Source of the DNA: Promethearchaeati archaeon
GTDB lineage: Archaea > Asgardarchaeota > Heimdallarchaeia > Heimdallarchaeales > Heimdallarchaeaceae
Length of the DNA: 64,000 bases
Direction: 5' to 3'
Assembly: GCA_013166775.1 (NCBI GenBank)
Contig: JABLTJ010000005.1
Coordinates: forward strand, 32,001-96,000
Shown here: piece after piece, positions 57,188 to 57,369 of the stretch
How positions within the stretch are numbered: the first letter of the stretch is position 1
How the letters are laid out: each line of letters opens with the position of its first letter
Translations under genes and position numbers: made by a program
The notes under the pieces: model-generated
The model's database searches: none
Seen by the model: only the letters and a program-made list of their open reading frames with translations
What the model was told of the DNA's origin: nothing

Positions 57188-57369
57188 ACCTAGCAAGGTT
57201 TTCAGGTTCGGAATGAGTCTGAGTGTTACCCCTTCACTATGGCCGCGACGCATCGCAGCGAACGGCTGTTCCCAAGCCCTCGCGGAACTTAGTACAAAGC
57301 CACACGTTGAAGGACTTAACTTTCCCGACCATCTGGAACGCATCCAGATGTTGTCTGACCTTACTAGGC
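57188..57369 (-). repeat. Complementary arms GCCTAGTAAGG (57369-57359) / CCTTGCTAGGT (57198-57188) flanking the permuted 5S, with BHB motifs
   Basis: 11-bp stem (2 G-U pairs), then TCAG/CTGA 4-bp helix with ACA and AAA bulges. Confidence 0.8.
57201..57321 (-). rRNA. rrf: 5S rRNA, circularly permuted (3' half 57321-57253, TGCG linker, 5' half 57248-57201)
   Basis: Minus strand reads AGTTAAGTCCTTCAAC...GTAC...GCGA...GGAA...GCTGCGA-TGCG-TCGCGGCCATAGTGAAGGGGTAACACTCAGACTCATTCCGAACCTGAA; all 5S helices can form. Confidence 0.9.

What the first reader, a model, noticed from the sequence alone, without database searches (positions are those of the whole stretch)
57188..57369. Circularly permuted 5S rRNA gene flanked by splicing-endonuclease (BHB) processing arms
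Seen, minus strand: the 3' half of 5S (AGTTAAGTCCTTCAAC...GTAC...GCGA loop...GGAA...GCTGCGA, 57321-57253) precedes the 5' half (TCGCGGCCATAGTGAAGGGGTAACACTCAGACTCATTCCGAACCTGAA, 57248-57201). The normal ends of helix I are joined by a TGCG loop, and the molecule is instead broken at the AA bulge of helix III. Helices I-V all pair, including the bulged A in helix II and the loop E motif. The break sits in a relaxed BHB: GGT-CGGG-AA^A / CCTG-AA^A-ACC. Cutting after the second bulge nucleotide and ligating gives CCGAACCTGAAAGTTAAG, the canonical spacing, in a 121-nt circle. An 11-bp terminal stem encloses the precursor. Established: archaeal EndA cuts BHB motifs and RtcB ligates; permuted archaeal tRNA and SRP RNA genes and permuted organellar 5S are known. 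I know of no permuted, BHB-spliced 5S gene in a prokaryotic chromosome. Inference: this organism makes 5S as a covalent circle, or a circle re-opened at helix I. Such genes could be missed or split by rRNA finders.
Basis: partly seen in the sequence, partly recalled or inferred. Interest (0 to 1): 0.97.

Follow-up and report, generated by a model that had tools for sequence, protein, structure and literature searches.

The report
Back-to-front 5S rRNA gene, Asgard archaeon
This Heimdall-group Asgard archaeon, like most Asgard lineages sampled, encodes its only 5S ribosomal RNA with the back part ahead of the front part, between signals of the tRNA-splicing type that should cut and rejoin it (probably into a 121-base ring), which explains why 5S genes seemed to be missing from these relatives of eukaryotes.

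Summary
Minus strand 57369-57188 holds a complete 5S rRNA in permuted order: the 3' two-thirds, then helix I sealed by a UGCG tetraloop, then the 5' third.

- **Detection.** Rfam sees only two sub-threshold half-hits in swapped order. A profile of canonical Asgard 5S matches the re-permuted sequence end to end.
- **Copy number.** It is the only 5S-like locus found in this genome (88.7% complete).
- **Conservation.** A covariance model built here finds the arrangement full-length in 79 of 83 genomes of the class. It also finds it in many other Asgard families, including the closed Heimdallarchaeum genomes, whose authors reported that no 5S could be predicted. 29 of 32 pairs show compensatory changes.
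- **Exclusivity.** In the 151-genome sample searched with both models, families with a canonical 5S and families with the permuted gene do not overlap.
- **Flanks.** Outside this family they form a textbook bulge-helix-bulge motif. In this family the outer stem is separated from the 4-bp central helix by a conserved covarying hairpin, so the motif is relaxed.
- **Product.** The predicted cuts rebuild the canonical junction. Two EndA paralogs and RtcB are encoded.

This scan has noted the same thing before on other Asgard DNA. I found no paper describing it.

The parts
57358..57369 (-). Outer processing stem, 5' strand (GCCUAGUAAGGU)
   Evidence: Pairs with 57199-57188. On 23 sequences of the family, 11 of 12 pairs have compensatory changes and 94% of cells pair.
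57351..57357 (-). Leader linker. It holds an invariant CAG (57357-57355) that could also pair with the CUG of helix III.
   Evidence: CAG is invariant in all 23 family sequences. The alternative 4-bp helix is complete in only 15 of 23. Its role is unknown.
57330..57350 (-). Leader hairpin: 7-bp stem and 7-nt loop, specific to this family
   Evidence: 96% of cells pair and 3 of 7 pairs have compensatory changes. It is absent from other Asgard families, where the outer stem abuts the central helix.
57324..57327 (-). BHB central helix, leader strand (CGGG; CAGG in relatives)
   Evidence: Pairs with CCUG at 57206-57203 in 23 of 23 family sequences, with a G-U to A-U change at one pair. The equivalent 4-bp helix covaries across Asgard lineages, for example CGUG/CACG, CCAG/CUGG, CAAG/CUUG and CCGU/GCGG.
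57321..57323 (-). 5' bulge AAA. The predicted EndA cut lies between 57322 and 57321.
   Evidence: EndA cuts between the 2nd and 3rd bulge nucleotide (PMC12397907). The product then starts AGUUAAG.
57201..57321 (-). Predicted excised 5S RNA, 121 nt, in permuted order
   Evidence: R1 covariance model: 150.5 bits, E 7e-38, full length. It is 121 nt by script.
57253..57321 (-). 3' two-thirds of the 5S: 3' strands of helices III and II, helices V and IV with loop E, and the 3' strand of helix I
   Evidence: RF00001 partial hit, HMM positions 47-115, and covariation.
57249..57252 (-). UGCG tetraloop that seals the native ends of helix I
   Evidence: UNCG-type caps occur in about 43 of 60 distinct sequences. 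Helix I has compensatory changes at 6 of 7 pairs.
57201..57248 (-). 5' third of the 5S: 5' strand of helix I, loop A, 5' strand of helix II, and helix III with loop C
   Evidence: RF00001 partial hit and HMM positions 3-49.
57203..57206 (-). BHB central helix, trailer strand (CCUG). It overlaps the 3' strand of mature helix III (CUGA, 57205-57202).
   Evidence: The BHB helix and mature helix III are mutually exclusive pairings. Forced folds are near-isoenergetic, at -69.0 to -71.5 kcal/mol.
57200..57202 (-). 3' bulge AAA. The predicted cut lies between 57201 and 57200.
   Evidence: This register rebuilds helix III followed by AA and GU in all five genera of the family, including those with CUGG and a GAA bulge.
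57188..57199 (-). Outer processing stem, 3' strand, followed by a T-run (57187-57183)
   Evidence: A T-rich stretch follows the stem in nearly all of the 17 aligned same-genus sequences, as expected for an archaeal terminator. That reading is an inference.

Best explanation
This is the organism's working, single-copy 5S rRNA gene, written in circularly permuted order. The organism is a Heimdallarchaeia (Asgard) archaeon of the same GTDB family as Candidatus Heimdallarchaeum.

Steps in the proposed pathway:
1. Inferred: the gene is transcribed alone, between a flavodoxin gene and a divergent tRNA-Ser gene.
2. Shown by covariation: leader and trailer pair into a 12-bp outer stem.
3. Shown to be possible in every relative, and co-varying in other Asgard lineages: a leader CGGG pairs with the trailer CCUG. 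This forms the 4-bp helix of a bulge-helix-bulge-like motif, with an AAA bulge on each strand. In this family a conserved leader hairpin turns the motif into a three-way junction.
4. Inferred: the splicing endonuclease cuts after the second nucleotide of each bulge. Two EndA paralogs are encoded.
5. Inferred: RtcB, which is encoded, joins the ends of the excised piece. CCUGAA is joined to AGUUAAG, which restores helix III with its two-A bulge and gives a 121-nt circle.
6. Inferred: helix I stays closed by its UGCG tetraloop, and the circle is the form that enters the ribosome.

My odds: real functional permuted gene about 0.97; excision at the BHB-like motif by EndA about 0.8; ends joined about 0.7; the closed ring being the ribosomal form about 0.5.
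For: - **Split detection.** Rfam gives two half-hits in swapped order. The re-permuted sequence gives one full-length profile hit with no gap at the junction.
- **Single locus.** It is the only 5S-like locus in the genome under both RF00001 and my model R1.
- **Covariation of helices I-V.** 96.5% and 97.1% of cells pair; 23 of 32 and 29 of 32 pairs have double changes; no shuffle of 500 reaches these values; slid controls stay at or below 52%.
- **Spread of full-length R1 hits.** 44 of 47 genomes of the order and 79 of 83 of the class. Also 19 further families in a 151-genome sample of the phylum.
- **Closed genomes.** CP084166.1 and CP084167.1 carry two copies each.
- **Exclusivity.** Canonical RF00001 hits occur only in families f11, f17, f20, f15, f27 and f28, none of which has a full-length permuted hit above 40 bits. 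The one hit above cut-off in a permuted family (38.4 bits, G021) lies over the permuted gene itself.
- **BHB in other lineages.** The outer helix is 7-15 bp in 28 of 36 non-f1 sequences, with 33 different sequences among the 36. Own leader and trailer pair at 7.06 of 8 positions, against 3.48 of 8 for cross-species pairs. The central helix covaries.
- **This family.** The outer stem and leader hairpin covary, and the central helix pairs in 23 of 23 sequences.
- **Enzymes.** EndA in two copies (185 aa each, 28% identical) and RtcB.
- **Cut position.** From the EndA-RNA crystal structure paper PMC12397907.
- **Caps.** UNCG-type caps on helix I.
- **Published gap.** Wu et al. 2022 could not predict a 5S gene in the closed Heimdallarchaeum genomes (PMC8813620).
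Against: - I examined no RNA data, so excision sites, ligation and the mature form are all unobserved.
- In this family the motif is not a canonical BHB. About 31 nt (linker, hairpin, GU) separate the outer stem from the central helix.
- The helix on the body side of the 5' bulge is only two A-U pairs, and then only if the bulge is read as 4 nt.
- The central helix shows no double compensatory change within the family, because its trailer strand is fixed by 5S function.
- A second invariant leader element (CAG) could pair with the same CUG, which would shift the 3' cut by one nucleotide.
- Folding energies do not favour the BHB conformer over a mature-like fold of the precursor.
- Published work states that archaeal 5S, unlike 16S and 23S, is not known to be circularised (PMC12918454).
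Confidence: 0.6

Rival explanations
1. The 5S is permuted but linear. The transcript is trimmed or cut at the flanks but not ligated. The ribosome then carries a 5S with helix I capped and a nick (free ends) at the helix III bulge, as in the permuted-in-product mitochondrial 5S of brown algae.
For: All gene-level evidence fits this reading equally well. Helix III and the GU/AC pairs could hold a nicked molecule together. Permuted final products exist in organelles (PMC4267664). The precursor's lowest-energy fold is mature-like rather than BHB-like.
Against: The BHB, with 3-nt bulges and a co-varying 4-bp helix, is conserved across Asgard lineages. It would be unnecessary for simple trimming. 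In archaea the pieces released by EndA are ligated by RtcB; this is established for tRNA introns and pre-16S/23S, and for the permuted SRP RNA (PMC4731332). RtcB is encoded here.
Confidence: 0.2
2. The circle is only an intermediate. It is re-opened in the helix I cap to give a conventional linear 5S with native ends, as permuted tRNAs are finished by RNase P and tRNase Z.
For: Permuted tRNA genes work this way (reviewed in PMC3978253, listed). Circular pre-16S and pre-23S are re-linearised in several archaea (PMC12918454).
Against: The cap is a UNCG-type tetraloop in about 43 of 60 distinct sequences, and in some lineages helix I is lengthened into a longer hairpin. That looks like a stable structural cap, not a processing site. 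No conserved cleavage motif is visible there.
Confidence: 0.1
3. The locus is an artefact or a relic: a mis-assembled tandem 5S repeat, or a dead copy, with the true canonical 5S lying in the unassembled 11% of the genome.
For: The genome is a draft of 115 contigs, 88.7% complete.
Against: The same order is found in 79 of 83 genomes of the class, including closed chromosomes. The native ends are joined by a 4-nt cap within a co-varying helix, not by a spacer. Compensatory changes show purifying selection on the permuted fold. No canonical 5S was found in any genome of the 19 permuted families sampled.
Confidence: 0.02

Closest known systems
Permuted, circularised SRP RNA gene of Thermoproteus tenax (Plagens et al. 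2015, eLife, PMC4731332)
   Same: An essential, universal structured RNA is encoded 3' part first. The canonical gene could not be found. [quoted passage not shown]
   Different: Here the RNA is a ribosomal RNA. The trait spans most of a phylum rather than a few species. In this family the motif carries an extra leader hairpin. Circularisation is not yet shown here.
Circularly permuted tRNA genes (Cyanidioschyzon merolae, Soma et al. 2007; Thermofilum pendens, PMC3218864; review PMC3978253)
   Same: The 3' half lies upstream of the 5' half. Leader and trailer form a BHB. EndA cutting and ligation give a circle that restores the native junction.
   Different: tRNA circles are re-opened at the acceptor stem. 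Here the native ends are sealed by a stable UNCG tetraloop, and no re-opening signal is seen.
Permuted mitochondrial 5S rRNA of brown algae and other stramenopiles (Valach et al. 2014, PMC4267664)
   Same: It is a 5S rRNA whose helix I no longer carries the termini.
   Different: In the organelle the ends sit at the three-way junction, helix I is replaced by a 5' or 3' hairpin, and there is neither a BHB nor ligation. Here the break is in the helix III bulge and is flanked by a splicing motif.
Circular and circularly permuted 23S rRNA of archaea (Pyrococcus furiosus, PMC7758197; Genome Biol 2026, PMC12918454)
   Same: BHB cutting and ligation of a ribosomal RNA, with circular or permuted forms inside ribosomes.
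   Different: Those genes are collinear and the permutation arises at the RNA level. Here the gene itself is permuted, and ligation would restore the native order. Those papers state that 5S is not circularised.

Membership tests
5S rRNA (Rfam RF00001) | Score at or above the gathering threshold (38 bits) on the genomic sequence | tested here: not met
   Two partial hits of 21.5 and 15 bits in swapped order. The failure is explained by the permutation.
5S rRNA (Rfam RF00001) | Helices I-V around a three-way junction, supported by covariation | tested here: met
   RNAalifold recovers all five helices. 96.5-97.1% of cells pair, and 23 of 32 and 29 of 32 pairs have double changes.
5S rRNA (Rfam RF00001) | Collinear match to canonical 5S once the order is restored | tested here: met
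   nhmmer with an HMM of 12 canonical Asgard 5S genes gives 54.7 bits over HMM positions 4-114, with no gap at the junction. Infernal could not be run on the re-permuted sequence, because the tool reads stored sources only.
5S rRNA (Rfam RF00001) | It is the genome's 5S, with no other copy | tested here: met
   Single locus under RF00001 and R1. The genome is 88.7% complete, so absence of another copy is not proven.
Permuted RNA genes matured by BHB splicing (permuted tRNA and SRP RNA) | 3' part upstream of 5' part in one unit, with the native ends joined by a short linker | tested here: met
   The linker is a UGCG tetraloop.
Permuted RNA genes matured by BHB splicing (permuted tRNA and SRP RNA) | Leader and trailer form a BHB: a 4-bp helix, two 3-nt bulges on opposite strands, and flanking helices | tested here: inconclusive
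   In the window the 4-bp helix and both AAA bulges are present and conserved. However, the outer helix is separated by a hairpin insertion and the inner flanking helix is weak. A strict hBHBh' is present in 28 of 36 non-f1 Asgard sequences examined.
Permuted RNA genes matured by BHB splicing (permuted tRNA and SRP RNA) | Cutting after the 2nd bulge nucleotide and ligating restores the native sequence | tested here: met
   In silico, the junction CCUGAA joined to AGUUAAG aligns without a gap to canonical 5S. The cut rule comes from PMC12397907.
Permuted RNA genes matured by BHB splicing (permuted tRNA and SRP RNA) | Splicing endonuclease and RtcB ligase are encoded | tested here: met
   PF01974 in two copies and PF01139.
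Permuted RNA genes matured by BHB splicing (permuted tRNA and SRP RNA) | Junction-spanning or circular RNA detected | not testable with these tools
Organellar permuted 5S (mtPerm-5S type) | Termini at the three-way junction, with helix I replaced by a terminal hairpin and no splicing motif | tested here: not met
   The break lies in the helix III bulge, helix I is intact and capped, and the flanks form a BHB-like motif. The E-value Rfam scan of the region listed only RF00001 among 5S families.

The most novel reading that the evidence does not exclude
In most Asgard archaea, the closest known archaeal relatives of eukaryotes, the mature 5S rRNA inside the ribosome is a covalently closed circle. 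It is made from a permuted gene by the tRNA-splicing endonuclease and RtcB. The permuted gene arose from a 5S gene that carried a BHB intron in the helix III bulge. The exact intron-bearing counterpart, in canonical order, exists on a foreign archaeal contig (L003).
Probability: 0.45. Interest if true: 0.93.

Novelty: new variant of a known kind. Interest (0 to 1): 0.88.

Why it matters
5S rRNA is universal, and its gene is thought to be trivially recognisable. Here a whole swathe of Asgard archaea hides it in permuted form, so standard annotation reports no 5S. Published closed Heimdallarchaeum genomes say exactly that.

The finding matters in four ways:
- It repairs genome annotation and MAG quality criteria that require a 5S gene.
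- It extends BHB splicing from tRNA, SRP RNA and 16S/23S processing to the third rRNA.
- It predicts a ribosome component without free ends in the lineage nearest to eukaryotes.
- It offers a clean system for studying how permuted RNA genes evolve, since canonical and permuted states split cleanly between Asgard families.

Tried and rejected
- **RNA evidence.** Earlier notes of this scan that report rejoined RNA are unverified by me.
- **Internal check of the cut rule.** I tried to use the window's own intron-bearing tRNA (31646-31746) for this. Its BHB is not clean, so I took the rule from PMC12397907 instead.
It is not conserved in the genus.
- **Alternative central helix UCAG/CUGA next to the outer stem.** It is possible, but complete in only 15 of 23 sequences, and it would give a 3-nt bulge. 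The CRGG/CCUG register restores the 2-nt bulge in all five genera.
- **Ideas checked by eye and dropped.** A K-turn in the leader, and an alternative CAGA/UCUG pairing. Neither is supported by the variants.
- **Thermodynamics.** The three conformers lie within 2.5 kcal/mol, so folding energy cannot decide between them.
- **L003 as an Asgard intermediate.** Rejected. Its neighbouring protein is only 43-48% identical to every Asgard genome, including its own bin's genus, and its 5S has no close relative among 399 Asgard genomes. It is a foreign contig.
- **My first automatic BHB finder.** It mis-ranked the family's own motif and was replaced. Its registers were chosen to maximise pairing, which inflates own-pair counts somewhat.

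Full report
**The observation**

On the minus strand, 57369-57188 reads in this order:
- outer-stem strand
- linker
- a hairpin
- CGGG
- AAA
- the 3' two-thirds of a 5S rRNA
- a UGCG loop
- the 5' third of the 5S
- CCUG
- AAA
- A
- outer-stem strand
- a T-run

Rfam at its gathering threshold finds only two tRNAs in the 64-kb window. With permissive thresholds it gives two RF00001 half-hits in swapped order, at 21.5 and 15 bits.

The Rfam tool reads stored sequence only, so I could not score the re-permuted RNA with Infernal. Instead I built a profile HMM from 12 canonical Asgard 5S genes found. The re-permuted window sequence gives one hit (54.7 bits, E 7e-19, HMM positions 4-114 of 119) with no gap at the proposed junction. 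The genomic order gives two hits, HMM 47-115 followed by HMM 3-49. The excised product would be 121 nt.

**Is it real and functional?**

It is the only 5S-like locus in the genome, which has 3.85 Mb in 115 contigs and is 88.7% complete.

Same-genus genomes carry the same locus at 80-98% identity, and genomes of other families of the order carry the same order of parts.

RNAalifold on 21 precursors recovers helices I, II, III, IV and V, and 26 of 34 predicted pairs show compensatory changes.

For a hand-written permuted 5S structure, two alignments give the following:

| Measure | 18 sequences | 60 distinct sequences from across the phylum |
|---|---|---|
| Cells paired | 96.5% | 97.1% |
| Pairs with double changes | 23 of 32 | 29 of 32 |
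| Shuffles (of 500) reaching these values | none | none |
| Slid-partner controls, cells paired | 28-52% | 28-47% |

The second alignment was fitted to the model, which favours the structure somewhat.

**Distribution and identity**

The covariance model R1 gives full-length hits in:
- 44 of 47 genomes of the order
- 79 of 83 genomes of the class
- 19 further families in a 151-genome sample of the phylum

A pattern that can match only the permuted order found 99 stretches in the GTDB species set, of which 80 were listed. All 80 are full-length R1 matches at 45-152 bits. Their records are labelled Heimdall-, Hod-, Jord-, Odin-, Frey-, Baldr-, Thor-, Hermod- and Prometh(Loki)-archaeota and Candidatus Asgardarchaeum. 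Some of these labels are clearly unreliable.

The closed chromosomes of Candidatus Heimdallarchaeum aukensis and H. endolithica carry two copies each. Their bit scores are identical to those of G035 and G036, which belong to the window's own family. [quoted passage not shown]

Canonical RF00001 hits above the cut-off occur only in these families:

| Family | Genomes with a canonical hit |
|---|---|
| f11 | 25 of 26 |
| f17 | 17 of 19 |
| f20 | 3 of 5 |
| f15, f27, f28 | present |

In those families R1 scores only 23-33 bits, and the genes are in canonical order by eye. No genome of a permuted family has a canonical hit, apart from one at-threshold hit that lies over the permuted gene itself. 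The two states are therefore mutually exclusive in the genomes sampled.

**The flanks**

In 28 of 36 non-f1 sequences examined, leader and trailer form a textbook hBHBh' motif:
- The outer helix is 7-15 bp, and 33 of 36 sequences of this helix differ.
- The central helix is 4 bp and covaries.
- There is a 3-nt bulge on each strand.
- A short GUU/AAC helix lies on the body side.

Own leader and trailer pair at 7.06 of 8 positions. Cross-species combinations pair at 3.48 of 8. The registers were chosen by a pairing criterion, which inflates the own-pair figure a little.

EndA cuts between the 2nd and 3rd bulge nucleotide (PMC12397907). In most lineages cutting there and joining rebuilds helix III followed by AA and GU. 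In family f3 it gives a 3-nt AUA bulge.

**This family is different**

In all five genera of the window's family, the outer stem is followed by:
- a linker with an invariant CAG
- a 7-bp hairpin
- two or three nucleotides
- CRGG, AAA and the 5S body

Within the family:
- The outer stem has compensatory changes at 11 of 12 pairs.
- The hairpin has compensatory changes at 3 of 7 pairs.
- CRGG/CCUG pairs in 23 of 23 sequences, but varies only from G-U to A-U, because the trailer strand is part of the mature 5S.
- A competing helix, leader (U)CAG with CUG(A), is possible but complete in only 15 of 23 sequences.

The CRGG/CCUG register restores the canonical two-A bulge in every genus. This includes the two genera where helix III reads CUGG and the bulge reads GAA. 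I therefore prefer that register.

The motif here is a three-way junction, which makes it a relaxed substrate. The genome encodes two divergent 185-aa EndA paralogs, 28% identical and both carrying N- and C-terminal endonuclease domains, plus RtcB. Two paralogs fit the heterotetrameric enzyme type, which is known for broad substrate range. The assembly state is an inference.

Folding energies do not separate the BHB conformer from a mature-like precursor fold.

**What happens after cutting**

The native ends of helix I are sealed by UGCG, UUCG, UACG or extended UUCG hairpins in about 43 of 60 distinct sequences. In a few lineages helix I is lengthened. That points to a permanent structural cap and argues against re-opening at helix I.

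Earlier notes of this same scan report the same gene type on some 65 other genomes. Several claim rejoined RNA in environmental data. I could not check them, and they do not enter my evidence.

**Literature**

Seven full-text searches found no description of a permuted or circular archaeal 5S. A 2026 paper states that 5S, unlike 16S and 23S, is not processed through circularisation (PMC12918454).

The closest precedents are:
- the permuted, circular SRP RNA of Thermoproteus (PMC4731332)
- permuted tRNA genes
- permuted mitochondrial 5S, which has a different break point and no splicing (PMC4267664)
- circular or permuted 23S rRNA

**Verdict**

The gene-level interpretation is strongly supported and holds across much of the phylum. 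The mechanism (EndA cuts, RtcB ligation, a 121-nt ring) is well motivated but unproven here, and in this family the substrate is non-canonical. It is a new variant of a known kind of system, it is of high interest, and the scan has already seen it repeatedly on other Asgard DNA.

Noticed in passing
L003:1501-1638 (G015 contig C117), minus strand: A canonical-order 5S (RF00001, 48.3 bits) carries a 20-nt insertion at exactly the helix III bulge. The insertion is framed as CACG-GAA-hairpin-CGUG-AAA-GUU, a textbook BHB intron with the same helix and bulges as many permuted Asgard genes. The contig is foreign to its bin: its neighbouring protein is only 43-48% identical to every Asgard genome. A tRNA with a roughly 45-nt intron lies next to it.
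   Followed up: partly
window 31646-31746 (+): A tRNA found by Rfam (54.3 bits) but missed by ARAGORN. By eye it is tRNA-Trp (CCA), with an intron of about 27 nt whose BHB is not canonical.
   Followed up: partly
L102:101-249, L101:101-257, L075:1664-1893: Some permuted 5S genes carry extra insertions: about 30 nt after CCGAA in loop C (L102, Loki-type), an insertion in helix IV (L101), and a second tandem copy with an insertion of about 100 nt (L075). These may be additional introns or expansion segments.
   Followed up: no
L155 (MCBE01000241.1) and L163 (DATKTW010000142.1): Contigs labelled Altiarchaeales archaeon and Nanopelagicaceae bacterium hold full-length permuted 5S genes (71.8 and 52.1 bits). 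The second has the same score as several Loki-type loci. Both are probably mis-binned Asgard contigs.
   Followed up: partly
window 57213-57428 (+) and 57237-57482 (-): Two ORFs of 71 and 81 aa lie over the RNA gene and have no Pfam match. They are almost certainly spurious and could be mis-called as genes.
   Followed up: yes
G021 contigs C77, C90, C106, C132; G023 contigs C354, C365, C374: In family f4 the permuted 5S occurs in 4-5 copies, mostly at contig ends with identical scores. It therefore seems to sit in a repeated unit that breaks assemblies.
   Followed up: no
window 56655-57179 (+), 57492-57574 (+), 57634-61044 (+): The neighbours are ordinary: a flavodoxin-domain protein, a divergent tRNA-Ser(GCU), then HypE-like (AIRS) and HypF genes. 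The 5S is not linked to 16S or 23S in this window.
   Followed up: yes
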